DNA from: Spirochaetales bacterium
GTDB lineage: Bacteria > Spirochaetota > Spirochaetia > JABEVK01
Assembly (NCBI GenBank): GCA_037142615.1
Contig: JBAXAI010000008.1
Coordinates: forward strand, 1-64,000
Length of the DNA: 64,000 bases
Direction: 5' to 3'
Made by a program: the position numbers and the translations under genes. The notes beneath the pieces are model-generated. The model was not told the DNA's origin and searched no databases. It was given only the letters and a program-made list of their open reading frames with translations. Each line of letters begins with the position of its first letter. The first letter of the stretch is position 1. Shown here piece by piece: positions 4,512 to 47,400 of this stretch.

Positions 4512-6289
4512 AACTCTCAGGATGGCGGCTTGGACTGTCGCTTGCGTTGGGAGTCGTGGTTGTACAGGGTCTCCTCGTAGGTTATCTGGCCAACCGAGCG
4601 CGCGCCAGCGGGCTGGAAAGCCTGCTTTCGTCTTTGGCAACCACTGCCGACCTTCTGGCGCAAACCCGCCACTCCGAACTTCTGGCCGCGTTGGCCGGAT
4701 CTCGTGCACAGGGACTGTCGGACTTGACGCCGGGGCCGGGGCAGCAACTGAGCCTGCTCGACGCCGAGGGGCGGCTCGTGCGGGAGGCGGCCAAGGACTC
4801 CCAGGTCATGCAAGACCCGTCACCCGCACCAGAGCTCGACGCAGCCCGGACCTCATCCCTTGGAAAGGCCCTTCGCTACTCGGCTGTCGAGGGCCGGGAG
4901 CTCCTCTTCGTGGCGGTGGCCTTGCGGAACGAGAACCAACTGGTTGGCTTTGTCAGGGTTTCGGCTTCCCCTGCCCCGGTCGATCAAGCGTTGGGTCAAC
5001 TCGTAGTCGTGTTCCTCGGGGTCACCTCGCTTCTGTTTCTCGGAATTGGTGCCATCGCGCTTACGGTGGGCCGGCGTTTTGACAGCCGGCTGGAGGCCCT
5101 TTCGGCCGGGGCTTCCCAGTTCGCCCAAGGTCAACGACCCGCCGCGCTGTTCTTGACCCGGCCGGCAAGCCTGCGCCAACTTTCGTTGAACCTGAACTCG
5201 CTCTACGACCGAGTCGACGCCCGCTTGAGTCAGCTGGGCGATGAAAAAAACGAGTTGATGGCCATCCTGGCCGGCATGGTCGAAGCTGTCGTCGTACTCG
5301 ACGCTCACCTGGTCGTCAAGACCATGAATCCGTCGGCGCGGCGCCTGTTTCCGGGCACGCGGGTCCCCGAAGGACTGAGTCTCATCGAAGCAGTCCGCAA
5401 CTCCGCGCTTGATGACCTAGCCCGGGACCTGCTCAAGGGGCCGGAAGACCAGCGACGAACGGAATTGCCGCTGGCGGAGCGCCAAATCACGCTACAGGTG
5501 CAGGGTGCAGCGCTCAGATCGTCCACAGGTACCACCTGGGGACTTGTGCTGGTCATGAGCGACATCACCCAGCTCAAGCGGCTGGAAATCATGCGCCGGG
5601 ACTTCGTAGCCAACGTGTCCCACGAACTCAAGACCCCCCTGACGACGATCCGCGGCTACGTGGAAACCCTGCGCGAGGGAGCCTTGGCCGACCCGGAGCG
5701 CGCCGAAACGTTTCTGTCGGTCATCGAGCGTCAGGCTGATCGCCTTGCCCTCATTGTCGACGACCTGCTCATCCTCACCCGACTGGAAAACAGCCCCCCC
5801 GAAGAAGGGGAACTGCGCTCGGTTGACCTCGACGAACTGGTCGAGACCGTGCTGGCCTCGTTTGCCGACCGGGCAAAAAAGTTGCGACTCAAACTCGTTC
5901 ACCAGCGGTCCGAAGTCCTCGCCGTCCTGCCTGTCTTCCCGCTGCTCCTGGAACAGGCGCTGGGAAACCTGCTCGACAACTCGCTGAAGTTCTGTTCAGC
6001 CGGCGCTGTCGTCACCGTCACTGTCTCGAGTGAGCGAGGCGAATGTCAGGTGGAAGTCCGTGACAACGGGCCGGGGATCGCTGAAGGCGACCAGCAACGC
6101 GTCTTCGAACGGTTCTACCGTACCGAGGCCAGCCGAACCATCGACGGAACGGGCCTGGGCCTGGCTCTTGTGAAGCACATCGTGCTCCTTCACCACGGAA
6201 CCGTGACGCTTTCGAGCCCACCGCCGGGCCGCCGCAAAGGCACGTCGTTCTTGCTGTCGTTTGCTCAGGCGGACCCGGCAGGCAGATAG
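4508..6289 (+). CDS. phoR: Sensor histidine kinase PhoR
   Basis: Two TM segments, PAS, H-box RRDFVANVSHELKTPL, G-boxes DNGPGI and GTGLGL. Confidence 0.9.
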   Translation: MKLSGWRLGLSLALGVVVVQGLLVGYLANRARASGLESLLSSLATTADLLAQTRHSELLAALAGSRAQGLSDLTPGPGQQLSLLDAEGRLVREAAKDSQVMQDPSPAPELDAARTSSLGKALRYSAVEGRELLFVAVALRNENQLVGFVRVSASPAPVDQALGQLVVVFLGVTSLLFLGIGAIALTVGRRFDSRLEALSAGASQFAQGQRPAALFLTRPASLRQLSLNLNSLYDRVDARLSQLGDEKNELMAILAGMVEAVVVLDAHLVVKTMNPSARRLFPGTRVPEGLSLIEAVRNSALDDLARDLLKGPEDQRRTELPLAERQITLQVQGAALRSSTGTTWGLVLVMSDITQLKRLEIMRRDFVANVSHELKTPLTTIRGYVETLREGALADPERAETFLSVIERQADRLALIVDDLLILTRLENSPPEEGELRSVDLDELVETVLASFADRAKKLRLKLVHQRSEVLAVLPVFPLLLEQALGNLLDNSLKFCSAGAVVTVTVSSERGECQVEVRDNGPGIAEGDQQRVFERFYRTEASRTIDGTGLGLALVKHIVLLHHGTVTLSSPPPGRRKGTSFLLSFAQADPAGR

Positions 6290-8556
6290 ACCCGGAAGAG
6301 CGTGCCCTTGCCGGGTTCCGACTCGACTTCCACAACGCCGCCGTGCTTCTTGACCACCGAAAAACAAATCGAAAGACCCAAGCCCGTGCCAGAAGGTTTG
6401 GTCGTGAAGAACGGGTCGAAGATCCGGGGGAGCACAGACGAAGGAATCCCGGGTCCGGTGTCCCTAACTTCAATGACCACATAGTCCCCTACGGGGAGGT
6501 CAGAATCCGGGTGTTCAAAGGCGGGTCTGTTCTCGAGGTGTACGGTTACCAGGCCCTTTCCGGGCTCCAGGACCTGCTTGGCGTTGAGAACGAGGTTCTC
6601 GAACACCTGCCCGATTTGACCCTCGTTCCCAAAAACCGGCCACAGGTCCTTGGGAGACTCCACTTTCCAGGTAATCCCCGAGCTTCCCAAGACAAACTCG
6701 AGCGTCTGATTCAGGTTCTCAAGAAGCCGGAAGTTGTGTTTCGTGGGTTGTCCACCCTTGGCAAACGTCAATAACTGCTGGGTAAGCGCACGCGCCCGCT
6801 CAAAGGGTCCGAGCGCATTGTCGAGGTACTGGCCCACCAGTTCAGCCGACTCGGTGTTCATGCGGGCCAACTGGAGAAAGCCGAACATTCCGGTGAGCAA
6901 GTTGTTGAAGTCGTGAGCGATGCCACCGGCGAGAAGGCCGATCGATTCGAGCTTCTCTGACTGTCTGAGCCGTTCCTCGATGCGCTCCCTCTGCGAAACG
7001 TCGCGAAGCAGCATGACCCGACCCCGGATTTCCCCGCCCGCGTCAAGAAGGTCCGAAACGTGGGTCTCCAGATGCAAACTCCGGCCGTCGGGCAAGTCGA
7101 GGGTCCAGGGCGTCAACGTGTCCCTGGCCTCCCACGGAAGCCGGAGGTCAAGCTCGGACCAGTGCCTGCCAACGGTCTGGCTGTCGGACCAGTCGAGCAG
7201 AGTCTGCGTCGTGCGGTTGATCAGGATGACCTGGCCTTCCTCGCCGATGGCAATCACGCCGTCACCGATATTTTCAAGCGTTACCGCGAGCAACTCCTGC
7301 TCACGCTGCAGCGTTTCCTGGAGCTTGTGCTGCGGGGTCACATCGATGGCGAGTCCCGTCCACACTACGGCGCCGTCCGACTGCTCCTGAGGAAACGAAG
7401 TCGCCAACGTCCAGACCGTTGAACCGTTAGGGCGAATCAGCCGGAACTCCAGCGAAAAGACCGTCAGGTTGCGGGCAGACTCGTCGAGTGCCGCTCGAAA
7501 CCGACCGAGGTCCTGAGGATGCACAGCCCCCTGAACAAGGTGAAAGTTAGCCATCACCTGCTCGGGGGTGAAGGGGACAAAGAGGTCGATTCCTGGGCTC
7601 AGGTACTGAAAACTCCACTTCCCGGCCCTTCGCACCAACTTGTAGAACAGTCCCGGGAGCAAGTTCGTCATGTCTTGGAGAAACTGGTCGGCTTCATGTC
7701 GCCGTTCCTCGGCCAGGCGCGTGTCGAGAGCCCAAGCCAAGTCATGCGCCATTTCTCCCAAGAGGCCCACTTCCTCGGGGGTGAAGACTCCTTCTTCCTG
7801 CGAGTAAAAGCTCAAACAGCCCCAAAGTTTCCCATCCACGGTCAAAGGAAAAACCCCGGAGGAACGGAAGCCTCCGCGATCGGTCAAGAGGTTCTCGATT
7901 ACCTCCTGGCCACTTTCCAGCGCCCTCTTCTCCTGAGTCAGTCGAGGTTCCAGCCCGTGCTCGAGCAGCGCCGAACGGGAAGTCGCCACCGTGACAAGCC
8001 GGTCTTCCCAACGCTGGAGCACCCTCACCAGCGAGTACTGCCCGAAGCGGGTGGCGATTCCACAGACCTCCTGAAGCAACAACGGTGAGCCCAAACTCCG
8101 AAAGATTGCTTTGTTGAAGCTGGAATGAATCTGGTGAACCCGGCCCAACCGCGCGAGCTGGATCTCGGCACGCAACCGGGCCAGACGAAGCGAACCCTCA
8201 CGAATCCCTCGCTCAATCGCCAGCGGAAGGCGCTCAAGACTATCTTTGAACACACAATCACTGGCGCCGGCTCGGATCAAATCCACCGCAGGCGAAGCGT
8301 CCGGGCCAGCAAGCACGATGAGCGGCGGCGGTACTGCCAACGCCTGAACGACCTTCAACACTTCGAGCGCCGAAAACCCTGGAAGGGTGTGCTCACAAAG
8401 CAGAAAATCCCAGCCGTCAGAGGCGTGCAAACGGACGGCCTCAAGGCTGGCGATCCTCTGGTGCTCGGCCACGTAGCCTGCCCCTCGCAGGCAGCTCAAG
8501 ACAAGATTTTCGTCTTCGGCCAAGTCTTGGATAAGCAGAAACCGTACCACTGACAT
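6265..8556 (-). CDS. Soluble sensor kinase: REC(pseudo)-GAF-PAS-PAS-HisKA-HATPase
   Basis: AGGIAHDFNNLL H-box, FDPFFTTK, GTGLGLS; N-terminal receiver-like domain. Confidence 0.9.
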   Translation of the reverse strand: MSVVRFLLIQDLAEDENLVLSCLRGAGYVAEHQRIASLEAVRLHASDGWDFLLCEHTLPGFSALEVLKVVQALAVPPPLIVLAGPDASPAVDLIRAGASDCVFKDSLERLPLAIERGIREGSLRLARLRAEIQLARLGRVHQIHSSFNKAIFRSLGSPLLLQEVCGIATRFGQYSLVRVLQRWEDRLVTVATSRSALLEHGLEPRLTQEKRALESGQEVIENLLTDRGGFRSSGVFPLTVDGKLWGCLSFYSQEEGVFTPEEVGLLGEMAHDLAWALDTRLAEERRHEADQFLQDMTNLLPGLFYKLVRRAGKWSFQYLSPGIDLFVPFTPEQVMANFHLVQGAVHPQDLGRFRAALDESARNLTVFSLEFRLIRPNGSTVWTLATSFPQEQSDGAVVWTGLAIDVTPQHKLQETLQREQELLAVTLENIGDGVIAIGEEGQVILINRTTQTLLDWSDSQTVGRHWSELDLRLPWEARDTLTPWTLDLPDGRSLHLETHVSDLLDAGGEIRGRVMLLRDVSQRERIEERLRQSEKLESIGLLAGGIAHDFNNLLTGMFGFLQLARMNTESAELVGQYLDNALGPFERARALTQQLLTFAKGGQPTKHNFRLLENLNQTLEFVLGSSGITWKVESPKDLWPVFGNEGQIGQVFENLVLNAKQVLEPGKGLVTVHLENRPAFEHPDSDLPVGDYVVIEVRDTGPGIPSSVLPRIFDPFFTTKPSGTGLGLSICFSVVKKHGGVVEVESEPGKGTLFRVYLPAGSA

Positions 8557-38766: not shown

Positions 38767-40758
38767 CTACACTTCGGCGAAAGTGAGCACTTCCCGGCGC
38801 GCGTCGGCGGCGACGACCTTGAGGGTCAGCGCGCCGCCGAGGGGGTGCTTGCGGGTGAGTTTGACCAAAGCGCGGTAACCCAAATCGGTCAGCAGGACCT
38901 GTGCTTGCGCTTCGTCGTCGCGGAACCACCCGACGATGACCGCCGGCCAGGTCTTTCCTTTTTGGCGGGCCAAATACTCGGTGATCCAGTAGCGGTCGGC
39001 GTTGCGCTCCAGACGGGCAGACTGCGCGTTCAAAGGATCGAGTTCAGCGGCCAAGGTGGCCAACGCTTCCGAGTCCAACGGGGGAACTTCACCTGCGGCC
39101 GCGGCCTTGAGCTGCCGGTGTACGGCCAAGTCGCCGTAGCGCCGGATGGGACTGGTCGCCTGAACGTAGCTCGGTAGGCCAAGGCCCGCGTGGGGACCGG
39201 CTTCCTGCGACAACAACGAACGCGTCATCGTCACGATCTTGCCAAACTCGCGGGCGGGTCCTTCGGGCAGGTGGCTCACGTCGACCGGGTCACCGGCGCG
39301 TTGCACCCGGTACAGCACGGGAATCTGTTTTTCCGCCGCAAAACGGGCTGCCGCTTCACCGGCCAGCACCATGAACTCGGCCACCCAATCCCGGGCAGCC
39401 TCGGCGGCGTAAACACCTACGTTTACCGTTCCTGCAGACAGATCAACTTTCACTTCCGACTCGGGGAGGTGGATCATCACCGCGCCCTGAGCGATTCGCC
39501 ACGCCTCACGCAAGCGGGCTGCGGTGGCGAGCGCGACGAGCAGTGGGTCACCCGCCGAAGCGAGCTCCTGGGCCTGCTGGTAGTTCAACCTGCGGTCGAC
39601 GCGGATGGTACTCGCCTCCACGGTGAGGTCGATCAACGCCCCGTCGGCGCCCAGCACACAACCGAAGCTCAGCGCGGCGCTTTCGACACCTGGCCTGAGG
39701 CTGAAAGGACCTTCGGCAAGGACAGGGGGAAACATGGTGAATCGGCCCGAGGGCAAGTACACCGTGGTGCCCCGACGGCGGGCTTCCAGGTCGAGAGCCG
39801 AATCGCGGGCAACCCAGTGTCCGGGGTCCGCAATGTGGATCCAGTACTTCAGCCTGCCGTCAGATAGCGTCTCAAGCGCCAAGGCGTCGTCCACCTCGGT
39901 CGTGGTGTCGTCGTCGATGGTCAGGCTGGCAAGGGCTGTCAGGTCGATCCGCGAACCGGAGTCCGGCGGTGCCCGGAGCAAAGACAACGCGGCAGCCTCC
40001 AACTCGGGTTCGAAGGCCGGGCTGAGACCCGCTCGAAGCACATCGAGGTTCTCGTGACGGTGCCAAAGCCCGAGGTCCACCAAAAACTGAAGGGCCGAGG
40101 CTTCGGTTTGAGGCCGGCCGGCCAGCTTGAGCAGATCCAGAGCGGCGTGCTTGTCCGCAGCCTCTTCGCCGAACAAAGCCAGCTTCTTCACGGCCTCGAA
40201 GCGTTCCAAGTCCTGGGGCTCCAGGTGGGAAGTTTTGTCGGCAAGGCGTGCTTCGAGGCGGCCGGCCAGTTCGGCCTGCAGCTTCTCTTTGGAGGCCAAG
40301 GCCGACTGTTGCTTGCGCAATTCCTCAACCTGACCAGCGGAACGGGCCTCAAAGCGCCCGCCTTTTTCCTTGAAAAACAACCGGTCGGCCTCAAGACTGG
40401 TGAAAAGTGCCCACGCCCGCTCGCCGGTGAGCGAATCCCACAGACAGCCGCCCAAAACCTCCAGCGAATACGGTCCTGGACCATCCGTCGAGAGGAGCTC
40501 CCAAACGGTAGCCAGATCCACGTCGCCCAGACAACCCTTGGCCTTCGTGGCCCAATCGTTCAGGCCCGAAGCGGTGACCCAAGGTTTGGGGTCGAGTTTC
40601 CATTCAGTCGTTGAGAACACGATATCGCGCTGTGCGACGGTGAGGCTGTTGCCAAAAGTGTCGGTAACGCGAAGCGAGTTCTTGCCTTCGGGACCCTCCA
40701 CGACGGCGAGACGTGGATGACCCTTGACAGGAAAAGAAACTACCGCGCCTTTTTCCAT
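38767..40758 (-). CDS. rnb: RNB-domain exoribonuclease (RNase II family)
   Basis: TIDDDTTTEVDDAL catalytic motif, HIADP, HAGLG, TSPIRRYGDL. Confidence 0.88.
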   Translation of the reverse strand: MEKGAVVSFPVKGHPRLAVVEGPEGKNSLRVTDTFGNSLTVAQRDIVFSTTEWKLDPKPWVTASGLNDWATKAKGCLGDVDLATVWELLSTDGPGPYSLEVLGGCLWDSLTGERAWALFTSLEADRLFFKEKGGRFEARSAGQVEELRKQQSALASKEKLQAELAGRLEARLADKTSHLEPQDLERFEAVKKLALFGEEAADKHAALDLLKLAGRPQTEASALQFLVDLGLWHRHENLDVLRAGLSPAFEPELEAAALSLLRAPPDSGSRIDLTALASLTIDDDTTTEVDDALALETLSDGRLKYWIHIADPGHWVARDSALDLEARRRGTTVYLPSGRFTMFPPVLAEGPFSLRPGVESAALSFGCVLGADGALIDLTVEASTIRVDRRLNYQQAQELASAGDPLLVALATAARLREAWRIAQGAVMIHLPESEVKVDLSAGTVNVGVYAAEAARDWVAEFMVLAGEAAARFAAEKQIPVLYRVQRAGDPVDVSHLPEGPAREFGKIVTMTRSLLSQEAGPHAGLGLPSYVQATSPIRRYGDLAVHRQLKAAAAGEVPPLDSEALATLAAELDPLNAQSARLERNADRYWITEYLARQKGKTWPAVIVGWFRDDEAQAQVLLTDLGYRALVKLTRKHPLGGALTLKVVAADARREVLTFAEV

Positions 40759-41408
40759 TTCACTTTCGGGTCAACCATGAGATAGGCGTACCCAGTGGAC
40801 ATATCTTCGTTGTGGATCAGCACGCCCTTGATCCCGTCGGGGACCCTGAGTTTGACACTGGCGAAGTTCAAGACCTTTTTCACTCCGGCCAGCAGCACCT
40901 TGGTGCAGATCTCCTGAGCCTCGTGGGGTGGCACGGAGAGAATGGCAATTGTCACGGGATTCTTGCCCAGGAAGGGAGTCAGTTCGTCGATGTCACGCAC
41001 TTTGATGCCGTGGTATTTTTTGCCGACTTTGACCGGGTCGTTGTCGAACGCAGCGACGATGTTGAGGCCGTTCATGCGGAACTCGGCGTAGCCCAGCAAG
41101 GCGGTGCCCAGGTTTCCGCAGCCGATGATGATGGCGGGGTTGGTCTGATCCCAGCGAAGGAATCGCTCCAGGGCGGCGATCAGGTCTTTGACCACGTAGC
41201 CGACGCGTGGCTTTCCGACGATTCCGGTCACGGCAAGGTCTTTTCGCACCTGAATGGGCTCCAGGATGAGCTCTTCGGCGATCGTGGTTCCCGAAATGAC
41301 TAGAACTCCGTCCTTTTCGGCCTGCCGGACAATCTGCAGGTACGCAGGCAGTCGGAGGGTGGTGGGTTTGCTCGTCGCTTCCCTGTCTACGGTTCTGGAT
41401 CGTTTCAT
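40740..41408 (-). CDS. rex: Redox-sensing transcriptional repressor Rex
   Basis: RLPAYL, QVRKDL, G..RVGY, GCGNLGTAL Rossmann motif, LNFA. Confidence 0.93.
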   Translation of the reverse strand: MKRSRTVDREATSKPTTLRLPAYLQIVRQAEKDGVLVISGTTIAEELILEPIQVRKDLAVTGIVGKPRVGYVVKDLIAALERFLRWDQTNPAIIIGCGNLGTALLGYAEFRMNGLNIVAAFDNDPVKVGKKYHGIKVRDIDELTPFLGKNPVTIAILSVPPHEAQEICTKVLLAGVKKVLNFASVKLRVPDGIKGVLIHNEDMSTGYAYLMVDPKVKWKKAR

Positions 41409-41435
41409 GATTCTTTCACTTCCCTCCTACTAGAT

Positions 41436-42680
41436 TTAAAGGTTTAGCTCGATCTTGGCAAGGAGTTTCCGGGCAACCTCGGCCTTGCTTGCTTTGTCGA
41501 GACGTTCATGGTTCCCCTTGGCGTCGACAACCAGCAGTGAATTGGTGTCGGTACCAAACCCTTCTCCCGGCTTGCTGTCGTCGTTGGCAGCGATAAGGTC
41601 ACCCCCGGCCTGCGCCAACCGCGAAGTGGCGTCGGTCAGGAGGTCGGCTTCCGAGAGCCCGCTTTGAGCCCGGAAGACCACCAGATAGGTTGCTTTGTTC
41701 CAGCCCTTCACCTGATCGACGATTTTGGGCGTGGGCCGAAACTCGACCACCAGGTTGCCCGAACTGGTAGGGAGCTTCGTGGCCGAAGGGGCTACCGGCG
41801 TCCAGTCGCCCACGGCGGCGCAAGCGATGAACACTCGGGGACGCTCGGCTTCGACCAGCTTTCGGCAGGCGGCTTCCATGGCGGCAGAGGTTTCGGCGAC
41901 GACCAGTTCGACACCTGGGGGAACCGGAACCGAGAGCTTCCCCGAGACCACGATGACCCGCGCCCCCAAACGGAGCGCCGCCTCGGCAAGAGCCAGCCCC
42001 ATCCGGCCCGTCGAGTTGTTGGTGACAACCCGGATCGGATCGAGGTACTCGACAGTGCGCCCGGCGGTGATGATGACGGTTTGCCCCGCGAGTTTTCCGC
42101 TGGCAGGAACAAGGGCCTCCCGCACGGCCTGCAGAATCTCATCGTTGTCGGCGATCTTGGCCTTGCCTTCTTCCACCCGGGGGCCCAGCACGCGGATGCC
42201 GGCGCCTTCCAGACGCGCCAGGTTCGCCACCACGAAAGGGTGGGCATACATCGACTGGTGCATCGCCGGCACTACCAGCACGGGAAGGCCTTCGCCAAAG
42301 GCGGTGGTCACAAAAGTTGTCACCGGGGTGTCGTCGATGCCCGAAGCGATCTTGCCGACCGTGTTGGCGGTGGCCGGCGCGATCAAGAGCAAGTCTGCGT
42401 GCACCTTGACGTTTCCCACCAGGCTGACATGTTCAATCTGGCCGGTCAATTCGGTGATGGGCTTGTGGCCCGTGGCCCATTCCAGCAAGTTGGGATGGAC
42501 AAGCTGCGTGGCTGCGTGGCTCATTACGGGGTAAACTTGGGCGCCGTGGCGCATCAGCAGGCGGGCGAGGTCGACGCTTCGCACCGCAGCTACCGAACCG
42601 GTCACACCGAGCACGATGGTCTTGCCGGCGAGGCTTTGGCTCAGCGACCCGACAATATCGACCGAAGGGTGTTCGTTCAT
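41436..42680 (-). CDS. coaBC: Bifunctional phosphopantothenoylcysteine decarboxylase/synthetase, archaeal-like sequence
   Basis: GVTGSVAA, APATANTVGK, PAMHQSMY, TAG.T.EYLDPIR.VTNNSTGRMG, AAVGD, AND. Confidence 0.95.
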   Translation of the reverse strand: MNEHPSVDIVGSLSQSLAGKTIVLGVTGSVAAVRSVDLARLLMRHGAQVYPVMSHAATQLVHPNLLEWATGHKPITELTGQIEHVSLVGNVKVHADLLLIAPATANTVGKIASGIDDTPVTTFVTTAFGEGLPVLVVPAMHQSMYAHPFVVANLARLEGAGIRVLGPRVEEGKAKIADNDEILQAVREALVPASGKLAGQTVIITAGRTVEYLDPIRVVTNNSTGRMGLALAEAALRLGARVIVVSGKLSVPVPPGVELVVAETSAAMEAACRKLVEAERPRVFIACAAVGDWTPVAPSATKLPTSSGNLVVEFRPTPKIVDQVKGWNKATYLVVFRAQSGLSEADLLTDATSRLAQAGGDLIAANDDSKPGEGFGTDTNSLLVVDAKGNHERLDKASKAEVARKLLAKIELNL

Positions 42681-43822
42681 CCAGCTACCTCCTGCAGGTC
42701 AGCGAGAAACTCTTTGAGAACACTCCGGGTCACGTGCGGCATGACAACAACGCGGAAACTATGCTGCCAGGTCGACAGCGCCCATCCTTTTTCGCGCAGC
42801 GAGGCCACCAGCAGAGGCGTCGGCATGTGCGTGCTGCGAACCCCGACCACGTTCACCTGGGGTTCGGCCAGCACCGGCTCCACACCCGAAATCTGGGTAA
42901 GGGCCTGCGTGAGGAAGCGCGAGAGTTCCATGGCTTCGGCGACGATGGCCGTGTAGCCGGGCACCCCGAGGTGTTTCATGACGGCCCAGACCGCTGCAAC
43001 CGCCGCCCCGGAGCGGGTGCCAACGAGGGTGTTTTGGCGCAATCGCCCGCCGGAAAGGTACTGAACGTCGGTCGCCGCCGTCCGTGCCAGCGTAGCATCC
43101 TTCCACAGGATCATGCCCGAGGGAATGGGCCCGCGCCCCATTTTGTGGGGGTCGGCCGTCAGGCTGCTCAGGCCCTCGGGCCACGAATACAACTCCGAGG
43201 CTCGGTTTTCAGGCAAAAAAGGAAGCACGAAGCCGCCGAACGAGGCGTCGAGATGAAAATACAACCCGTGGCGAAGGGCTAACGCGGCCAAGGCACCAAT
43301 GTCGTCGATGGCTCCCCACGCCGTCGTCCCGGCGATGCCGATCACGGCCAGGGTCTGGGGTGTGATGGCAGCTTCCATGCGGTCGAGGCGAACCCGGCCC
43401 CGGTCGTCGACGGGAACTCTCACGAGGTTGAGACCCATGAACGACGCGGCTTTGTCGAACGAATAGTGGGCCGAGGCCGGCAGAAGCACCTCGCGCTTAC
43501 CGGGCGACAACAGTCTCGCGGTCCAGAGGGCCAACAGGTTGGCCTCGGTTCCTCCGGTGACAATGCGTCCCGCCGCCAAGGGGTTGCCCCACCAAGTGCC
43601 CAGCAGTGAGCAGGCTTCGCGCTCCAGTTCAGCCAGACCGGGCACCAGCCCTTCGTCACCGATGTTGGTCTCGAGGGCCCGCATAAAGGCCTGTTCGGCC
43701 ACCGGGTGTGGCCGCGAGCACATCGATCCCAGAATCTTGCCCGAGGCGAAGGTCCAATCCCCGGCAAGCCTCCGGTCGAGTTCTTCCAGCACGGCTCGCG
43801 AAGAGTCCGCTCCGAGGCTAAT
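42677..43822 (-). CDS. mfnA: PLP-dependent group II decarboxylase of MfnA/GAD type; probable aspartate 1-decarboxylase (start uncertain: ATT 43822 or GTG 43792)
   Basis: GKILGSMC.PHP, TGGTEAN, SAHYSFDKA, HLDASFGGF, PLP lysine in ADPHKMG, GTRSGA, RVVVMPHV. Confidence 0.88.
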   Translation of the reverse strand: MSLGADSSRAVLEELDRRLAGDWTFASGKILGSMCSRPHPVAEQAFMRALETNIGDEGLVPGLAELEREACSLLGTWWGNPLAAGRIVTGGTEANLLALWTARLLSPGKREVLLPASAHYSFDKAASFMGLNLVRVPVDDRGRVRLDRMEAAITPQTLAVIGIAGTTAWGAIDDIGALAALALRHGLYFHLDASFGGFVLPFLPENRASELYSWPEGLSSLTADPHKMGRGPIPSGMILWKDATLARTAATDVQYLSGGRLRQNTLVGTRSGAAVAAVWAVMKHLGVPGYTAIVAEAMELSRFLTQALTQISGVEPVLAEPQVNVVGVRSTHMPTPLLVASLREKGWALSTWQHSFRVVVMPHVTRSVLKEFLADLQEVAG

Positions 43823-44603
43823 GATAGGACTCCTTGTCGGCTGGGTACGTCCCCGAGCGCACGTCGGCCGAAAACTCGCCCAAAACCGACTTGATGGCGT
43901 CACCCACATGGAGGTAGCGATCGGGAACAAACTTGGCCTTGCGGTGACTGTTGAGGTGCAGCAGGTCGTGGAACACCAGAACCTGGCCGCTGGTGTGCGC
44001 TCCGGCCCCGATGCCAATCGTCGGCAGACCAAGACCCCGCGTCACCGACTCTCCGAGCGACAGAGGAACACATTCCAGCACCACCGAAAAGCAACCCGCC
44101 GCGGCAAGGTCACGGGCGTCGGCGTCGATCGCGGCAGCGTCGGCAGCGTCTTTGCCCTGCACCTTGAACGAACCTGCCGTCTGGGGCAACAAACCCAAGT
44201 GACCCATCACCGGGATTCCGCTGGCGAGGATAGCCCTGGCGATGCCTGGAGCATTGCCCTCAAACTTGACCGCATCGGCCCCGCTGGCCATCAGCAGCTT
44301 GGACGACTCCACGGCCGCCTCGGGGGTATCGTAGGAGTGCAAGGGAAGGTCGGCGACAATCGGGATCACTTTGCGCCCCCGCGCGGCCATCCGGGTGTGG
44401 TACATCATGTGCTCGAGTGTCACGGCCGAGGTGGAATCGCGGCCCTGCTCGACCATGCCGAGGCTGTCACCCACCAGGATCAGGTCGGCGCCGGCGGCTT
44501 CGACCAGCTCGGCCTGCCACGCGTCGTAGGCGGTCAGAACGACGAGCTTGTGACCGGCCTTCCAGGCGTCCAGAAACGGCTGCAAACGCGGTGTAGAAAT
44601 CAC
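43818..44603 (-). CDS. panB: Ketopantoate hydroxymethyltransferase
   Basis: LTAYD, LVGDSLGMV, GHLGLLPQ, VLECVP, IGIGAG, GQVLVFHDLL; GTG start overlapping the pps stop after GGAG. Confidence 0.95.
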   Translation of the reverse strand: MISTPRLQPFLDAWKAGHKLVVLTAYDAWQAELVEAAGADLILVGDSLGMVEQGRDSTSAVTLEHMMYHTRMAARGRKVIPIVADLPLHSYDTPEAAVESSKLLMASGADAVKFEGNAPGIARAILASGIPVMGHLGLLPQTAGSFKVQGKDAADAAAIDADARDLAAAGCFSVVLECVPLSLGESVTRGLGLPTIGIGAGAHTSGQVLVFHDLLHLNSHRKAKFVPDRYLHVGDAIKSVLGEFSADVRSGTYPADKESYH

Positions 44604-45370
44604 TTTTGTTCTCCTGCCAGGGCGTAGAGCCGGTCGGCCATGAACTTCAGGGCTTTTGCGAGATTGGCCCGGTTGTCCCAGGCACCCCAAAGTGCCTCAA
44701 GCTCGCCCCGGGGCCGGTTCTTGAGAGCCCCCGCTTCGCTGACCAGCAGAGGCAGCGCCCGCAGGATGTTGTCGACGATGGTCAAGTGCGACATCTTCGA
44801 GGTACGCGAAAGCGGGTTCAGGTCGATGGTCAGCACCGTCTTGCCGAGCTTGACCAGAGCCTCGGTTCGGTCCCCGTCTTCCAGCGGCACCAACACGGTG
44901 TCGGCGATGAGAATTCCTCGCGGCGACACGATGCGACGCGCGTGCTGAAGCTCATCGATCACAGCGCTGGCGTCGTCACCCACCCCGAGCACCTCGGTGG
45001 CCCCGGCGGCCCGCAGCGCGGCCTCGACCGCTTCTTCCCGTCCAGGCTTGCGGTAGAACAGGTTGACCTCGAGCCGGGCACCGGTGACTTTGGAAAGCTC
45101 AACGAGTTCGGCGGCCACCAGAGCGGCGGCGTTGCCGTTCACCGAGATGACAGGATGGGACGAGAGCAGCAGTTTCGCGGCAGCGGCGCGGCACGCTTCG
45201 CGGCCAAAATCGGCCGTTGCTTCACCCAAAAAGTAGTCCAGCGACTCACCCCTTCCGTGAGCGATCAGACCGGATTCGGTGACGACCAGGGAATGCAGTC
45301 CCTCGACGATCTTTTCGCGGCTCATCAACGAGGCGTAGCGCGGATGGCTGGTCGGAATCTCAATCAGCAT
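44600..45370 (-). CDS. Archaeal-type phosphopantothenate synthetase (4-phosphopantoate--beta-alanine ligase, COG1701/DUF137)
   Basis: IPTSHPRYASL..RE, GLIAHGRGE..DY, SVNGN, EVNLFYR, VPLEDGDRTEAL, IDLNPLSRT, TIVDNI.RA. Confidence 0.93.
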   Translation of the reverse strand: MLIEIPTSHPRYASLMSREKIVEGLHSLVVTESGLIAHGRGESLDYFLGEATADFGREACRAAAAKLLLSSHPVISVNGNAAALVAAELVELSKVTGARLEVNLFYRKPGREEAVEAALRAAGATEVLGVGDDASAVIDELQHARRIVSPRGILIADTVLVPLEDGDRTEALVKLGKTVLTIDLNPLSRTSKMSHLTIVDNILRALPLLVSEAGALKNRPRGELEALWGAWDNRANLAKALKFMADRLYALAGEQK

Positions 45371-46256
45371 GCAAAAGCCTCCCGCCCTGCAAGTCGAGCT
45401 GCGAAGAAAAAACGGTGCCTGAGCCCAACAAACGGAACGCCGCGAGCGCGCGCTCGGCGTCGAAACTCTCTACGAGGGTAAACAACCCATCGCCGAACAT
45501 CAGCATGGGAGCGGTGAACCCTTTGTCGGCGAGCAGGGTCTGGCAGCCGGTCAGCCGACCGCTGACGAGCTGCGTCTGGCGGCCAAAGCGAACCGAGAGT
45601 TCCAAGAAATGTTTCCACGACGGAGCGTCGAGCAGGGCCTGCCGAAAGGCCTCGCCTTCCCTGTTGACCGCCTCGCGGATGGCAGGGTTTCCCAGCATGG
45701 CCGAGGTGGCCAGCGGGCCCAAAACCAGGAAGACGGCGGTCAGACCGTCCGGAGTGGGCAGCGGTTGCACACGCCCCACCCCGGGTGCCCCTGGCTCGAG
45801 ACTGGCCTTGAAGCCGCCGTGGGCTTCACCCAGAACGGTTCCCAGGCCGGTTCCGCATTCAATTTCGGCCAGATGGGCCAGAGCCCCGGCCTGATCGGTC
45901 GAAAGTGGAGACCCCGCCAGGCCGTTGAGAGCCAGCGCAAGCGACAGCGCTCCGGCTCCCGAAGTGCCAAAACCGCAACCCACGGGGAGCGTCGTTTGGT
46001 GCTCGATGGCCACCGGTTGCGTCCAATTGGCCCTGGAGCGAAACAGGCGCAACACTGCGAGGGAAACCGGCGCATCGTCGAGAGTCTTGCCGCCAAGCTT
46101 CACAGAATCGGATTCTGCCGAAAAGACTTGGGTCTCAACCCCGAGGGCAAGGCTGAACCCCGCGCCGAGCGAACCGTGGTGAAGGGGGTCCGAATGGGGT
46201 CGAATCGAGAAGAACCCCGTGACATGACCGGGAGAAAAGGCGCGGGAAGAATGCAT
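45360..46256 (-). CDS. Archaeal-type pantoate kinase (GHMP kinase, COG1829)
   Basis: N-terminal AFSPGHVTGFF, GSLGAG, GHMP loop PVGCGFGTSGAGAL, AH.AE....TGLG, PGAPG; adjacent to PPS. Confidence 0.88.
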   Translation of the reverse strand: MHSSRAFSPGHVTGFFSIRPHSDPLHHGSLGAGFSLALGVETQVFSAESDSVKLGGKTLDDAPVSLAVLRLFRSRANWTQPVAIEHQTTLPVGCGFGTSGAGALSLALALNGLAGSPLSTDQAGALAHLAEIECGTGLGTVLGEAHGGFKASLEPGAPGVGRVQPLPTPDGLTAVFLVLGPLATSAMLGNPAIREAVNREGEAFRQALLDAPSWKHFLELSVRFGRQTQLVSGRLTGCQTLLADKGFTAPMLMFGDGLFTLVESFDAERALAAFRLLGSGTVFSSQLDLQGGRLLHAD

Positions 46257-46340
46257 GTAGTACCTTGGAACCCATGGTATTGTAAAAAGTTCCGTTTGAG
46301 AAGTGCGGGATTTTGCCGAAACTGGGAACAGGAGTCCTGT

Positions 46341-46856
46341 ATGAACCGTATGCTGGCCGTTGTGGTGTTTGTCGGGTGCAGCCTTTCCCCGCTGGCTTCC
46401 CAAGACTTGCCCGCCTCAGACCCGACCACCCTCACCGTGGCGCCGTCGGATCAGGTGAAGTACCCCGAAGCAAAGGACATCCTCAACCCCCTGCCTCCCC
46501 CGGCGCCCAAGGTAGTACCCAAAGCGGCACCCAAAGCAGCCGACAAACCCGTGGTCCCGGTGGTCAAGGTGGTTCCCGGTGGTCCGCTGCTGGCTTCGGC
46601 TCCGATTCCGGCCGTGGCTCCCGTGGCCGCCAAACCCGTGCCGCTTCATGGCTGGTTCATCGTGTGGTCGCTTTCGGGCTCCGCCGAGGCCGTGCAGACC
46701 TGGGTGGAGGGACTCCAAGCCGCCGTGCCCGCGTTGCCTGTGAAGGTTTCCGGCAAAGGTGCGGCGTGGACCGTAGAACTCGGTCCTGTCGATGCTCAAT
46801 CGCTCGACGCCGCGTGGGCCGTTCCGGGAGCTCGTCCCCGCCTCATCAAGAAGTAG
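46341..46856 (+). CDS. Exported Pro/Lys/Val-rich protein with a SPOR-like C-terminal domain
   Basis: SD CAGGAG, signal peptide, low-complexity linker, WTVELGP. Confidence 0.6.
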   Translation: MNRMLAVVVFVGCSLSPLASQDLPASDPTTLTVAPSDQVKYPEAKDILNPLPPPAPKVVPKAAPKAADKPVVPVVKVVPGGPLLASAPIPAVAPVAAKPVPLHGWFIVWSLSGSAEAVQTWVEGLQAAVPALPVKVSGKGAAWTVELGPVDAQSLDAAWAVPGARPRLIKK

Positions 46857-47325
46857 AGGAACCTCGCCGGCTGGTCAAACGGACGAGTGTCATGAAAGTG
46901 GCGTCGAAGGTTCGGACAAAACGGTCCCACTCCTTTTTTCCGTAGACCGCCGTCGATTCCGGTTTGAGCCCTGCCGCGTTCAAGCCCGCCATAAAATCCC
47001 TCACGGACAGGCGCTCACGGATGTTTTCGGCCGTATAAAGCGCGCCCCGGTCGTTAAGAACGGCCACACCCAGTTCCACCAACCGCGAAGCCAGGGGAAT
47101 GTCGCGGGTGACAACGAGGTCGCCCGGTAGAGCCCTCGCAACCAGGGCGTCGTCGGCCGCGCCTTCGGTAGCCGCCACGACTTCCATCGTAATCGCGAGG
47201 TCCGCACGAAACGGAATGGGCCGGTTGGCAAAGCAGGTCACGGGCACCCCTTCGCGGCGACCAGCCTTGGCAACGACCTCGCGTACCGCGCGTGGGCAAC
47301 TGTCCCCATCAATCAGAACTTGCAT
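46846..47325 (-). CDS. YaiI/YqxD (DUF188) family protein
   Basis: IDGDSCP, AADD, VVTRDIPLA, RG..YT.ENI.ERL..RD. Confidence 0.9.
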   Translation of the reverse strand: MQVLIDGDSCPRAVREVVAKAGRREGVPVTCFANRPIPFRADLAITMEVVAATEGAADDALVARALPGDLVVTRDIPLASRLVELGVAVLNDRGALYTAENIRERLSVRDFMAGLNAAGLKPESTAVYGKKEWDRFVRTFDATFMTLVRLTSRRGSSTS

Positions 47326-47400
47326 ACGTCATCCTACGTTCGAGGCAAGACCTTGGCCAACCCCCTTTCTTTTTGGTGCGAGGGCCGTTAGCATGGCGAC

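What the first reader, a model, noticed from the sequence alone, without database searches (positions are those of the whole stretch)
41436..46256. Complete archaeal-type coenzyme A operon (PoK-PPS-panB-MfnA/ADC-coaBC) in a spirochaete
Seen: five co-oriented genes with overlapping starts and stops (11-bp PoK/PPS overlap, GTGA for PPS/panB, ATGA for mfnA/coaBC), set among clearly spirochaetal genes. Established: bacteria make 4'-phosphopantothenate with PanC then PanK and make beta-alanine with pyruvoyl PanD. Most archaea instead use pantoate kinase (COG1829) then phosphopantothenate synthetase (COG1701), and some use a PLP-dependent GAD/MfnA-type aspartate decarboxylase. The PPS motifs here (HPRY.SL, AHGRGE, SVNGN, EDGDR, IDLNPLSR) are diagnostic. 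Inference: an inter-domain transfer replaced the bacterial upper CoA pathway with a compact operon that skips free pantothenate. Codon style looks like the neighbouring genes, which suggests an old acquisition. I recall only sporadic bacterial exceptions and none in spirochaetes, but could not check this.
Basis: partly seen in the sequence, partly recalled or inferred. Interest (0 to 1): 0.92.

Follow-up and report, generated by a model that had tools for sequence, protein, structure and literature searches.

The report
Archaeal-type coenzyme A operon in spirochaetes
A freshwater spirochaete makes the coenzyme A precursor with a five-gene operon of archaeal type instead of the usual bacterial enzymes, and the same operon turns out to be common in one class of spirochaetes.

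Summary
Window 41436-46256 (minus strand) holds five tightly packed genes: pantoate kinase (PoK), phosphopantothenate synthetase (PPS), PanB, an MfnA-type PLP decarboxylase and CoaBC. The 96.7%-complete genome has no PanC, PanD, CoaX or CoaA. It keeps bacterial CoaD, CoaE and IlvC.

The block is not an assembly artefact. Contigs from runs of three studies bridge both edges, and relatives share the flanking genes.

The operon's CoaBC is also of archaeal type: bacterial monophyly is rejected, p-AU 0.005. One Thermoproteota genome (G418) has the same five genes in the same order. All spirochaete PoKs fall on one side of a branch (SH-aLRT 98), and codon usage is ameliorated, so the acquisition was probably single and old.

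The operon is not rare. PPS occurs in 55 of 301 genomes of the window's class (25 of 135 genera), and in 7 of 401 phylum-wide.

Entoporibacteria (2020) are a published bacterial precedent. I found no paper linking PoK or PPS to spirochaetes, although database annotations already carry the names.

A side finding: one small-genome genus keeps PoK and CoaBC but has lost PPS and has no known pantothenate kinase.

The parts
45360..46256 (-). Pantoate kinase (PoK) homologue, 298 aa, a GHMP kinase. First gene of the operon.
   Evidence: the two best NCBIfam hits are pantoate-kinase models (E 4e-33 and 1e-29), both below their equivalog cut-offs; the only PDB match is T. kodakarensis pantoate kinase 6jbc, E 3.8e-29, over residues 5-271. 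S99, H128 and E131 lie in conserved columns; it clusters with 18 other spirochaete PoKs.
44600..45370 (-). Phosphopantothenate synthetase (4-phosphopantoate--beta-alanine ligase, PPS), 256 aa. Its start overlaps the PoK stop by 11 bp.
   Evidence: PF02006 at 228 bits; NF010324 at 333 bits, above the 227 cut-off; matches 3wdk at E 1.6e-71 over the full length, with all motifs shared.
43818..44603 (-). Ketopantoate hydroxymethyltransferase (PanB), 261 aa from a GTG start that overlaps the PPS stop (GTGA).
   Evidence: it groups with the PanB of archaeon G418 (SH-aLRT 95) rather than with ordinary spirochaete PanB; bacterial monophyly is not rejected (p-AU 0.109).
42677..43792 (-). MfnA-type PLP-dependent decarboxylase, inferred to be the aspartate decarboxylase that supplies beta-alanine. 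About 371 aa. The start is uncertain: GTG 43792 is preferred, ATG 43909 is possible.
   Evidence: TIGR03812 at 374 bits, above the 299 cut-off; best PDB matches are 3f9t and 6jy1, the latter named 'L-tyrosine/L-aspartate decarboxylase'; the DPHKMG lysine motif is kept; among PPS-bearing spirochaetes it is mutually exclusive with PanD.
41436..42680 (-). Bifunctional CoaBC (PPCS/PPCDC), 414 aa. Its ATG overlaps the mfnA stop (ATGA). Archaeal-type sequence.
   Evidence: it is at most 37% identical to the CoaBC of ordinary spirochaetes; it is 44-49% identical to the nearest Thermoproteota CoaBC; placement in the tree and AU test.
40740..41408 (-). Redox-sensing repressor Rex, 27 nt downstream of coaBC, with an AGGAGG ribosome-binding site. 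Possibly co-transcribed. The adjacency is conserved only in family f1.
   Evidence: NF003994 at 227 bits; junction sequence. Rex follows coaBC in L009, L010, L011 and L015; no Rex in the 14 loci from other families.
46257..46340 (.). Short divergent intergenic region where the operon promoter must lie (inferred).
   Evidence: a plus-strand ORF starts at 46341; no sigma-70-like site was found, so the promoter is not identified.

Best explanation
The block is a working operon for the archaeal route to 4'-phosphopantetheine.

Proposed pathway:
- PanB makes ketopantoate.
- A reductase encoded elsewhere, most likely IlvC, makes pantoate.
- PoK phosphorylates pantoate.
- The MfnA-type PLP decarboxylase makes beta-alanine from aspartate.
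- PPS joins the two products to give 4'-phosphopantothenate, so free pantothenate is never formed.
- The archaeal-type CoaBC adds and decarboxylates cysteine.
- Bacterial CoaD and CoaE, encoded elsewhere, finish CoA.

Proposed history: the whole five-gene block, in this order, came from an archaeon related to the sampled Thermoproteota genome G418, which is possibly bathyarchaeal. It entered an early member of the window's spirochaete class and replaced PanC, PanK, PanD and the bacterial CoaBC. It was then inherited vertically, with lineage-specific rearrangements and losses.

Shown here: gene identities, gene order, absence of the bacterial enzymes, distribution, and tree placement. Inferred: enzyme activities, the decarboxylase's substrate, the identity of the reductase, and the donor.
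For: Identities.

Missing bacterial route in G000 (96.7% complete):
- PanC 0, PanD 0 and CoaX 0.
- CoaA model: only a 23.8-bit hit against a cut-off of 235.
- CoaE, CoaD and IlvC are present.
- No PanE/ApbA above cut-off.

Complementarity:
- PanC is in 276 of 401 genomes of the phylum but in none of the 7 with PPS.
- CoaX is in 0 of 9 further PPS-bearing genomes.
- The MfnA type is present in 5 of 10 PPS-bearing genomes. PanD is present in 3 others. No genome has both.

Archaeal origin:
- The nearest named non-spirochaete PPS are Desulfurococcaceae and Freyarchaeota, at 60-62% identity.
- PoK-PPS-PanB-CoaBC is colinear in 12 of 40 archaeal loci. Locus L083 (G418) has all five genes in the window's order.
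- The operon CoaBC forms a clade (SH-aLRT 99) on the archaeal side (97). The tree holding all bacteria together is rejected, p-AU 0.005.
- PanB groups with G418 (SH-aLRT 95).

Single, old acquisition:
- 19 spirochaete PoKs separate from 21 archaeal PoKs at SH-aLRT 98.
- Monophyly of spirochaete PPS is not rejected, p 0.484.
- The five-gene order occurs in 15 of 36 spirochaete loci, from 5 families.
- GC3 and codon usage of the five genes lie at the 12th to 72nd percentiles of the genome.

Integrity: contigs from runs of three studies bridge both edges without differences.
Against: - No enzyme activity was measured.
- PoK scores far below both curated equivalog cut-offs.
- By alignment, PoK has Thr where T. 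kodakarensis has Asp143 and Ser where it has Arg155. The Thr variant also occurs in 6 of 21 archaeal PoKs, including G418's.
- The decarboxylase is annotated as a tyrosine decarboxylase, and its substrate cannot be read from the sequence.
- The PPS tree is poorly resolved. Family f9 sits apart on a long branch.
- For PanB, the tree holding bacteria together is not rejected, p-AU 0.109.
- The AU groups were named after the trees had been seen.
- All trees are 'quick' searches without bootstraps.
- The archaeal sample is one phylum plus a few named proteins. No Euryarchaeota genomes and no bacteria outside Spirochaetota except E. coli were included, so the donor is uncertain.
- Two related MAGs (G404, G405) have neither the MfnA type nor PanD. 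Their completeness was not reported to me.
Confidence: 0.85

Rival explanations
1. Only PoK and PPS came from archaea. PanB, the decarboxylase and CoaBC are bacterial genes that later gathered around them.
For: For PanB, the tree that holds all bacteria together is not rejected (p-AU 0.109). PanB identity to ordinary spirochaete PanB (33-46%) is about the same as to archaeal PanB (36-45%). Family f3 has PoK-PPS alone, with a bacterial-type PanB, a CoaC and a PanD elsewhere.
Against: Archaeon G418 has the same five genes in the same order. The operon CoaBC sits on the archaeal side, and bacterial monophyly is rejected, p 0.005. CoaBC is at most 37% identical to ordinary spirochaete CoaBC but 44-49% identical to the nearest archaeal ones. 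After spirochaetes, the nearest named decarboxylases are Bathyarchaeota at 48-49% identity and one 'Candidatus Hydrothermota bacterium' protein at 48%.
Confidence: 0.08
2. The block is foreign DNA joined to a spirochaete contig by mis-assembly or mis-binning.
For: The genome is a 76-contig assembly with 2.24% estimated contamination.
Against: Logan contigs from runs X1, X2 and X3, which belong to three studies, bridge the Rex/coaBC edge. Contigs from X1 and X2 bridge the edge upstream of PoK. None shows any difference. One of these runs may be the source sample. Four named spirochaete MAGs and G159 share the operon, and four of these five loci have Rex next to it. Codon usage is typical of the genome. 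Closed single-contig spirochaete genomes carry PPS.
Confidence: 0.01
3. The PoK/PPS route is ancestral in this bacterial lineage, inherited from a very early ancestor that had both routes, and was not acquired from archaea.
For: Thomes and Lescure offer this as an alternative for Entoporibacteria (PMC7883664, Discussion). The trees here are unrooted, so a clade of spirochaete PoKs facing the archaeal ones does not by itself give a direction.
Against: PPS is confined to one class of the phylum: all 7 hits among 401 genomes are 'same class' or closer. The rest of the phylum largely has PanC, in 276 of 401 genomes. In the PPS, CoaBC and PanB trees the spirochaete sequences lie among Thermoproteota and Asgard sequences, not outside them. 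Gene order is shared with one particular archaeal genome.
Confidence: 0.04
4. The decarboxylase is a tyrosine decarboxylase, as the databases name it, or another amino-acid decarboxylase unrelated to CoA. Beta-alanine then comes from another source.
For: The matching model, TIGR03812, is named tyrosine decarboxylase MfnA. NCBI names the spirochaete homologues the same way. Two relatives (G404, G405) have the operon without this gene and without PanD, so another beta-alanine source may exist in this group.
Against: The gene sits between panB and coaBC with overlapping or short junctions in 15 of 36 spirochaete loci. Among 10 PPS-bearing genomes it is present exactly where PanD is absent: 5 have it, 3 have PanD, and none has both. 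PDB entries of the same family are named L-tyrosine/L-aspartate decarboxylase. JGI names the homologues tyrosine decarboxylase/aspartate 1-decarboxylase. From memory, not seen here: M. jannaschii MfnA and the T. kodakarensis homologue supply beta-alanine.
Confidence: 0.1

Closest known systems
Archaeal PoK/PPS route to 4'-phosphopantothenate (Thermococcus kodakarensis TK2141/TK1686; structures 6jbc and 3wdk)
   Same: The same two enzyme families are present, over their full length, with the PPS motifs identical. Phosphorylation before condensation is the inferred order of reactions. A PLP-dependent rather than a pyruvoyl aspartate decarboxylase is used.
   Different: The host is a bacterium, and the last two steps use bacterial CoaD and CoaE. 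No PanE-type reductase is present; by Shimosaka et al. 2019 (passages) that reductase is the feedback-regulated step in T. kodakarensis. PoK carries Thr and Ser at the columns that align with Tk Asp143 and Arg155. The importance of those two residues is recalled from memory, not checked.
PoK/PPS in sponge-associated Entoporibacteria (Thomes and Lescure 2020, PMC7883664)
   Same: These are bacteria that have PoK and PPS and lack PanC and PanK. They have bacterial DPCK and PPAT, no classical ketopantoate reductase, and KARI (IlvC) is proposed as the substitute. The pattern is the same as in G000.
   Different: The phylum is different. In the spirochaetes the five genes form one operon whose CoaBC is also of archaeal type, and a decarboxylase is included. 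The paper describes the Entoporibacteria CoaBC as homologous to E. coli's and does not describe an operon or a decarboxylase. I read parts 1 and 2 of 3 of its text. Its supplements could not be seen and may hold more taxa.
PoK-PPS-PanB-(MfnA)-CoaBC gene clusters of Thermoproteota (sampled genomes, e.g. G418 locus L083, Nitrosocosmicus locus L014)
   Same: Gene content and order match. The four-gene order is found in 12 of 40 archaeal loci and in L014. The five-gene order is found in L083. Identity of L083 to the window: PoK 40%, PPS 54%, PanB 44%, MfnA 46%, CoaBC 49%.
   Different: L083 has a gap of about 0.9 kb between PPS and PanB. The spirochaete genes overlap or abut. Codon usage in the window is that of the host.

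Membership tests
Phosphopantothenate synthetase (PF02006 / NF010324) | Score above the curated cut-offs over the full length of the model | tested here: met
   PF02006 at 228.3 bits against a cut-off of 26.4, covering profile positions 1-175 of 176. NF010324 at 333.4 bits against 227. The archaeal equivalog NF041123 scores 292.6 bits against 300, just below its cut-off.
Phosphopantothenate synthetase (PF02006 / NF010324) | Conserved motifs shared with the solved, biochemically characterised enzyme | tested here: met
   The alignment to 3wdk (E 1.6e-71) shows HPRY, AHGRGE, SVNGN, EDGDRTEAL and DLNPLSR identical. Which of these residues bind substrate was not checked against the structure paper.
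Phosphopantothenate synthetase (PF02006 / NF010324) | 4-phosphopantoate--beta-alanine ligase activity | not testable with these tools
   This needs an enzyme assay or complementation.
Pantoate kinase (NF040725 / NF041122; GHMP kinase superfamily) | Score above the curated equivalog cut-off | tested here: not met
   114.6 bits against 380 and 103.4 bits against 500. Both models are narrow, built for particular archaeal groups. They are still the two best hits, well ahead of mevalonate kinase (25.9), archaeal shikimate kinase (24.8) and homoserine kinase (20).
Pantoate kinase (NF040725 / NF041122; GHMP kinase superfamily) | Full-length similarity to the solved pantoate kinase and conservation of GHMP motif residues | tested here: met
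   6jbc is the only PDB match, at E 3.8e-29, covering query residues 5-271. S99, H128 and E131 are conserved in 17 of 17 (E131: 15 E, 2 D) spirochaete sequences and in 20-21 of 21 archaeal sequences.
Pantoate kinase (NF040725 / NF041122; GHMP kinase superfamily) | Residues aligning with Tk Asp143 and Arg155 (their importance is recalled from memory, not verified) | tested here: inconclusive
   The window has T140 and S152. Thr at the first column occurs in 16 of 17 spirochaete and 6 of 21 archaeal PoKs. Arg at the second column occurs in 11 of 17 spirochaete and 21 of 21 archaeal PoKs. Sequences that lack this Arg have Lys or Arg two residues earlier.
Pantoate kinase (NF040725 / NF041122; GHMP kinase superfamily) | Gene adjacent to PPS | tested here: met
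   PoK lies immediately upstream of PPS in the window and in 27 of the other 35 spirochaete loci examined. One locus is cut off before PoK, and 7 loci lack PPS. PoK also lies next to PPS in many archaeal loci.
MfnA-type PLP decarboxylase (TIGR03812) | Score above the cut-off and presence of the PLP-lysine motif | tested here: met
   373.8 bits against 299.4. The DPHKMG motif aligns with that of 3f9t.
MfnA-type PLP decarboxylase (TIGR03812) | Aspartate 1-decarboxylase activity in the cell | not testable with these tools
   The support is indirect: operon position, and mutual exclusion with PanD.
CoaBC (TIGR00521) | Both domains present (Flavoprotein and DFP), with a score above the cut-off | tested here: met
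   354.7 bits against 219.7. PF02441 covers residues 20-189 and PF04127 covers residues 197-384.
PanB (TIGR00222) | Score above the cut-off | tested here: met
   242.4 bits against 207.55. PF02548 scores 275.6 bits.
Bacteria using the archaeal phosphopantothenate route (precedent: Entoporibacteria) | PoK and PPS present while PanC and every known PanK type are absent from the same genome | tested here: met
   G000: PanC 0, CoaX 0, and CoaA only 23.8 bits against a cut-off of 235. The type II model (PF03630) found nothing, but its control also found nothing, so that search is uninformative. The genome is 96.7% complete.

The most novel reading that the evidence does not exclude
In one genus of small-genome spirochaetes the pantoate kinase homologue has become a pantothenate kinase. 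That would be a fourth, GHMP-type PanK that feeds salvaged pantothenate to the archaeal-type CoaBC.

The genus is g11 of family f6, with genomes of 1.2-1.8 Mb.
- All 9 genomes keep an intact PoK homologue; 7 full-length copies read are 309 aa.
- In the 7 PPS-less loci inspected, PoK sits directly upstream of CoaBC.
- 8 of the 9 genomes lack PPS.
- None of the 9 has CoaX or CoaA.
- G145, the one genome checked for these, also lacks PanC and PanB.

Sister genera, and the one g11 genome that has PPS, show PoK-PPS-CoaBC-PanB. So PPS and PanB were cleanly removed while PoK was retained.

From memory of the abstract of Yokooji et al. 2009, which I could not open here: T. kodakarensis PoK has low pantothenate kinase activity. 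That would make the switch biochemically plausible.
Probability: 0.4. Interest if true: 0.8.

Novelty: new member of a known kind. Interest (0 to 1): 0.62.

Why it matters
PoK and PPS have been described as unique to archaea (Shimosaka et al. 2019, passages) and as a marker that separates the two domains (Thomes and Lescure 2020). The only published bacterial exception I found is an uncultured sponge symbiont group.

This work shows a second and much larger bacterial group. About a fifth of the sampled genomes of one spirochaete class carry the route. Several of these are closed genomes, so cultured strains may be available for experiments.

The group did not take only the two marker enzymes. 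It took a whole five-gene archaeal operon, including CoaBC and the PLP-type aspartate decarboxylase, and it lost the bacterial counterparts. That is a clear case of inter-domain replacement of an essential cofactor pathway by a single operon.

It also raises a regulatory question. These bacteria have neither PanK, which is the bacterial feedback point, nor a PanE-type reductase, which is the archaeal one. How CoA synthesis is controlled in them is unknown.

There are practical consequences too. Automated annotations of 'GHMP kinase' and 'tyrosine decarboxylase MfnA' in spirochaetes should be read as CoA pathway genes. Metabolic models that score these organisms as pantothenate auxotrophs are probably wrong.

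Tried and rejected
- The simple promoter and terminator scan of 40400-47400 found no sigma-70-like site, and it found fewer terminator-like sites than in shuffled sequence. It says nothing about the transcript.
- The listing of cluster members on 20 PPS cluster representatives gave names for only 2 clusters: Bathyarchaeia and Methanomethylovorans. The PPS backbone could therefore not be labelled this way, and I did not use the third call.
- The first PPS tree (96 rows) held many fragmentary and long rows. I replaced it with a 70-row tree. The 26 rows dropped were unnamed 50%-cluster representatives.
- The six-term literature search was uninformative because of its ranking. I replaced it with two-term searches.
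- The protein atlas only repeated that PPS clusters are 92-96% archaeal.
- Columns that distinguish the PoK-only proteins from the others are confounded by shared descent: the 7 proteins form one subclade. I draw no conclusion on specificity from them.
- I considered and rejected a PoK-PPS fusion in family f3. The long open frames of 502 and 381 aa come from adjacent genes, and my extraction gave separate ORFs of 301 and 252 aa.
- The papers by Yokooji et al. 2009 and Tomita et al. 2012 are not held. The PoK structure paper did not appear in my search. What I say about T. kodakarensis PoK residues and its low PanK activity is therefore from memory.
- The supplements of PMC7883664 could not be seen. 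They may list further bacterial taxa.

Full report
**What is in the window**

One search lists five co-oriented minus-strand ORFs between 41436 and 46403. Pfam and NCBIfam scans identify them as follows.

- 45360-46256: a GHMP kinase. Its best matches are the two pantoate-kinase models (114.6 and 103.4 bits), both far below those models' narrow cut-offs.
- 44600-45370: phosphopantothenate synthetase (PF02006 at 228 bits; NF010324 at 333 bits against 227).
- 43818-44603: PanB (TIGR00222 at 242 bits against 208).
- 42677 to about 43792: an MfnA-type PLP decarboxylase (TIGR03812 at 374 bits against 299).
- 41436-42680: CoaBC (TIGR00521 at 355 bits against 220).

- An 11-bp overlap between PoK and PPS.
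- GTGA between PPS and panB.
- ATGA between mfnA and coaBC.

The mfnA start is uncertain. GTG 43792 is preferred and ATG 43909 is possible.

Downstream, rex starts 27 nt after coaBC, behind an AGGAGG site. Upstream, a divergent plus-strand ORF (46341-46856) has no Pfam match. It leaves about 85 nt for the operon promoter, and the simple scan did not find one.

**Similarity to characterised enzymes**

- PoK's only PDB match is T. kodakarensis pantoate kinase 6jbc (E 3.8e-29, residues 5-271).
- The decarboxylase matches M. jannaschii MfnA (3f9t) and entries named L-tyrosine/L-aspartate decarboxylase. The PLP-lysine motif is kept.

I aligned 17 spirochaete and 21 archaeal PoKs. S99, H128 and E131 lie in conserved columns. 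The window has Thr and Ser where, by alignment, the T. kodakarensis enzyme has Asp143 and Arg155.

- The Thr is shared by 16 of 17 spirochaete and 6 of 21 archaeal PoKs. Among the archaeal ones are the three that lie closest to the spirochaete clade.
- Sequences lacking the Arg have Lys or Arg two residues earlier.

That these two residues matter is my recollection, not something I checked.

**The rest of the pathway in this genome**

The genome (G000) is 4.27 Mb in 76 contigs, 96.7% complete.

- No PanC, no pyruvoyl PanD and no type III PanK.
- Only a 23.8-bit hit to the type I PanK model, against a cut-off of 235.
- The type II model found nothing, but its control was also silent, so that search is uninformative.
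- Bacterial CoaE (71 bits), CoaD (170 bits) and IlvC (379 bits) are present.
- No PanE/ApbA reductase passes its cut-off.

This pattern is the one reported for Entoporibacteria, where KARI was proposed as the reductase (PMC7883664, parts 1 and 2 of 3 read). The operon's CoaBC is the only full-length CoaBC match in the genome.

**Not an artefact**

Four named spirochaete MAGs and G159 carry the operon, and four of these five loci have rex next to it. The 8-kb stretch is held in 20 freshwater or lake metagenome runs from 10 studies.

- Logan contigs from X1, X2 and X3, which belong to three studies, bridge the rex/coaBC edge.
- Contigs from X1 and X2 bridge the edge upstream of PoK.
- None of these shows any difference from the window. 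One of the runs may be the source sample.

GC3 and codon usage of the five genes fall between the 12th and 72nd percentiles of 2414 long ORFs of the genome.

**Distribution**

| Sample | Result |
|---|---|
| 401 genomes of the phylum | PPS in 7, all 'same class' or closer |
| Same 401 genomes | PanC in 276, but in none of the 7 with PPS |
| 301 genomes of the window's class | PPS in 55 (25 of 135 genera) |

Within the class sample:

- PPS is nearly universal in families f1 (10 of 11), f3 (3 of 3), f9 (6 of 6) and f68 (15 of 17).
- It is in 11 of 20 genomes of f6.
- It also occurs in seven further families.
- Several PPS-bearing genomes are closed.

NCBI-named homologues come from Spirochaetales, Spirochaetia, Spirochaetaceae and Sediminispirochaetaceae MAGs. 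Some are already named 'pantoate kinase' and others 'GHMP kinase'.

CoaX was found in none of 9 further PPS-bearing genomes.

The decarboxylase and PanD exclude each other. Five of 10 PPS-bearing genomes have the MfnA type, the three f3 genomes have PanD instead, and two MAGs have neither.

**Operon architecture**

I examined 36 spirochaete loci. Fifteen of them, from families f1, f9, f68, f87 and f90, show the window's order PoK-PPS-PanB-MfnA-CoaBC. The variants are:

- PoK-PPS-PanB-CoaBC in two f1 MAGs.
- PoK-PPS-CoaBC-PanB in f6.
- PoK-PPS-MfnA-CoaBC in f101.
- PoK-PPS-CoaBC in f104, probably also in f97.
- PoK-PPS-PanB-MfnA, or PoK-PPS-MfnA without PanB, in f107.
- PoK-PPS alone in f3, where a bacterial-type PanB lies next to a CoaC about 6 kb away and a PanD lies within 8 kb in the two closed genomes.

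**Origin**

After the spirochaete clade, the nearest named PPS are from Desulfurococcaceae and Freyarchaeota, at 60-62% identity. The nearest named decarboxylases are from Bathyarchaeota (48-49%) and one 'Hydrothermota bacterium' (48%).

In a sample of 101 Thermoproteota genomes, 51 have PPS. I inspected 40 archaeal loci.

- Twelve show PoK-PPS-PanB-CoaBC in that order, as does Nitrosocosmicus.
- Locus L083 (G418) has all five genes in the window's order.
- G418's decarboxylase is 75% identical to a protein named 'Candidatus Bathyarchaeota archaeon'.

All trees below are quick IQ-TREE searches with SH-aLRT support only.

| Protein | Result |
|---|---|
| PoK | 19 spirochaete PoKs separate from 21 archaeal ones at 98 |
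| CoaBC | CoaBC of f1, f9 and G145 form a clade (99) on the archaeal side (97), apart from a clade of 24 ordinary spirochaete CoaBCs plus E. coli (100). Holding all bacteria together costs 29.5 log-likelihood units and is rejected, p-AU 0.005 |
| PanB | PanB of f1 and f9 groups with G418 (95); f3 PanB groups with ordinary spirochaete PanB. Bacterial monophyly is not rejected, p-AU 0.109 |
| PPS | Poorly resolved: f1 and f3 group together (89) and f9 sits on a long branch. One spirochaete clade is not rejected, p 0.484 |

The AU groups were defined after I had seen the trees. The archaeal genomes are from a single phylum plus a few named proteins. The only bacterium outside Spirochaetota is E. 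coli. The donor therefore remains a hypothesis.

**Best reading**

One old en-bloc transfer brought a five-gene archaeal operon into an early member of this spirochaete class. It displaced PanC, PanK, PanD and the bacterial CoaBC. Vertical descent followed, with rearrangement, partial loss and, in f3, retention or regain of bacterial PanB and PanD. I put this at 0.85 for function and archaeal origin. I put it lower for a single event (about 0.7) and for a bathyarchaeal-like donor (about 0.4).

**Literature**

- Shimosaka et al. 2019 (PMC6650551, passages) call PoK and PPS unique to the archaea.
- Thomes and Lescure 2020 describe them in Entoporibacteria as unexpected.
- No paper in the searched library holds 'pantoate kinase' or 'phosphopantothenate synthetase' together with spirochaet*, spirochet* or spiroch*.
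- Of the 9 papers since 2020 that mention pantoate kinase (8 listed, titles and abstracts seen), only Thomes and Lescure is, by title and abstract, about the pathway in bacteria.
- A 2025 preprint on spirochaete genome evolution does not mention pantothenate, pantoate or coenzyme A in its main text.
- Subscription journals and supplements were not searchable.

**A side finding that may be the more novel one**

In genus g11 of family f6 (genomes of 1.2-1.8 Mb):

- All 9 genomes keep a PoK homologue.
- Only 1 of 9 has PPS.
- None has CoaX or CoaA.
- In G145 and six further genomes the kinase gene is directly followed by the archaeal-type CoaBC.
- In these seven genomes the kinase is an intact 309-aa protein.
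- The PPS-bearing member of the genus and three sister genomes have PoK-PPS-CoaBC-PanB.
- G145 also lacks PanC and PanB.

A kinase that is retained after its product's only known consumer has gone, sitting next to the enzyme that uses phosphopantothenate, in genomes with no known PanK, suggests a switch to phosphorylating salvaged pantothenate. This is untested.

**Verdict**

The system is a new bacterial member of a known kind, the archaeal PoK/PPS route already seen in Entoporibacteria. It is made more interesting by three things:

- the transfer of a whole operon, including CoaBC;
- its breadth within one spirochaete class;
- the PoK-only lineage.

Noticed in passing
L086 (G145:C2:86042-90253) 546-2754; L147-L152: Genus g11 of family f6 keeps an intact PoK homologue directly upstream of the archaeal-type CoaBC. 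It has lost PPS in 8 of 9 genomes, and none of the 9 has CoaX or CoaA. This could be a PoK-derived pantothenate kinase.
   Followed up: partly
L011 (G404) and L012 (G405): Two close relatives have PoK-PPS-PanB-CoaBC without the decarboxylase, and neither genome has an MfnA-type gene above cut-off or a PanD. Their source of beta-alanine is unexplained. Their completeness was not reported to me.
   Followed up: no
L016, L017 (G094, G030), L018 (G230): Family f3 is a mosaic. It has archaeal-type PoK-PPS. In L016 and L017 a bacterial-type PanB lies next to a stand-alone CoaC about 6 kb away. All three genomes have a pyruvoyl PanD, within 8 kb of PoK-PPS in G094 and G030 and about 41 kb away in G230. 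None has an MfnA-type gene. I did not look for their CoaB.
   Followed up: partly
P0004, P0152, P0005 (proteins): PPS is fused to PanB in proteins of 521-526 aa. One of them is named as from a Bathyarchaeia archaeon. P0005, at 529 aa, also begins with PPS; its other half was not examined. Shimosaka et al. 2019 list Bathyarchaeota among the archaea without PoK/PPS, which these records contradict.
   Followed up: no
window 45801-45809 (PoK residues 150-152) and aligned columns: There is a correlated swap in PoK. Most sequences have E-x-R. The window, L009 and f3 have K-x-S, and G145 and one MAG have R/K-x-L. The positive charge thus moves two residues along what may be a strand. By the PoK tree this happened more than once.
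   Followed up: no
L014 6001-6733 (Nitrosocosmicus): The PPS match is split into two pieces in different frames (6001-6174 and 6191-6733). This is a possible frameshift or sequencing error in that record.
   Followed up: no
window 46341-46856 (+): A 171-aa ORF lies divergent from the operon. It has a hydrophobic N-terminus ending in a Cys (possibly a lipoprotein), a Pro/Ala/Val/Lys-rich middle, and no Pfam match.
   Followed up: partly
P0516: An MfnA-type decarboxylase named as from a 'Candidatus Hydrothermota bacterium' is 48% identical to the window's and 60% identical to that of archaeon G418. Other bacterial phyla may also carry parts of this system.
   Followed up: no
window 40740-41408 (-): The redox sensor Rex sits 27 nt downstream of coaBC. 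The adjacency is conserved in four other f1 loci and in none of the 14 loci from other families. A regulatory link between redox state and CoA synthesis is possible but untested.
   Followed up: partly
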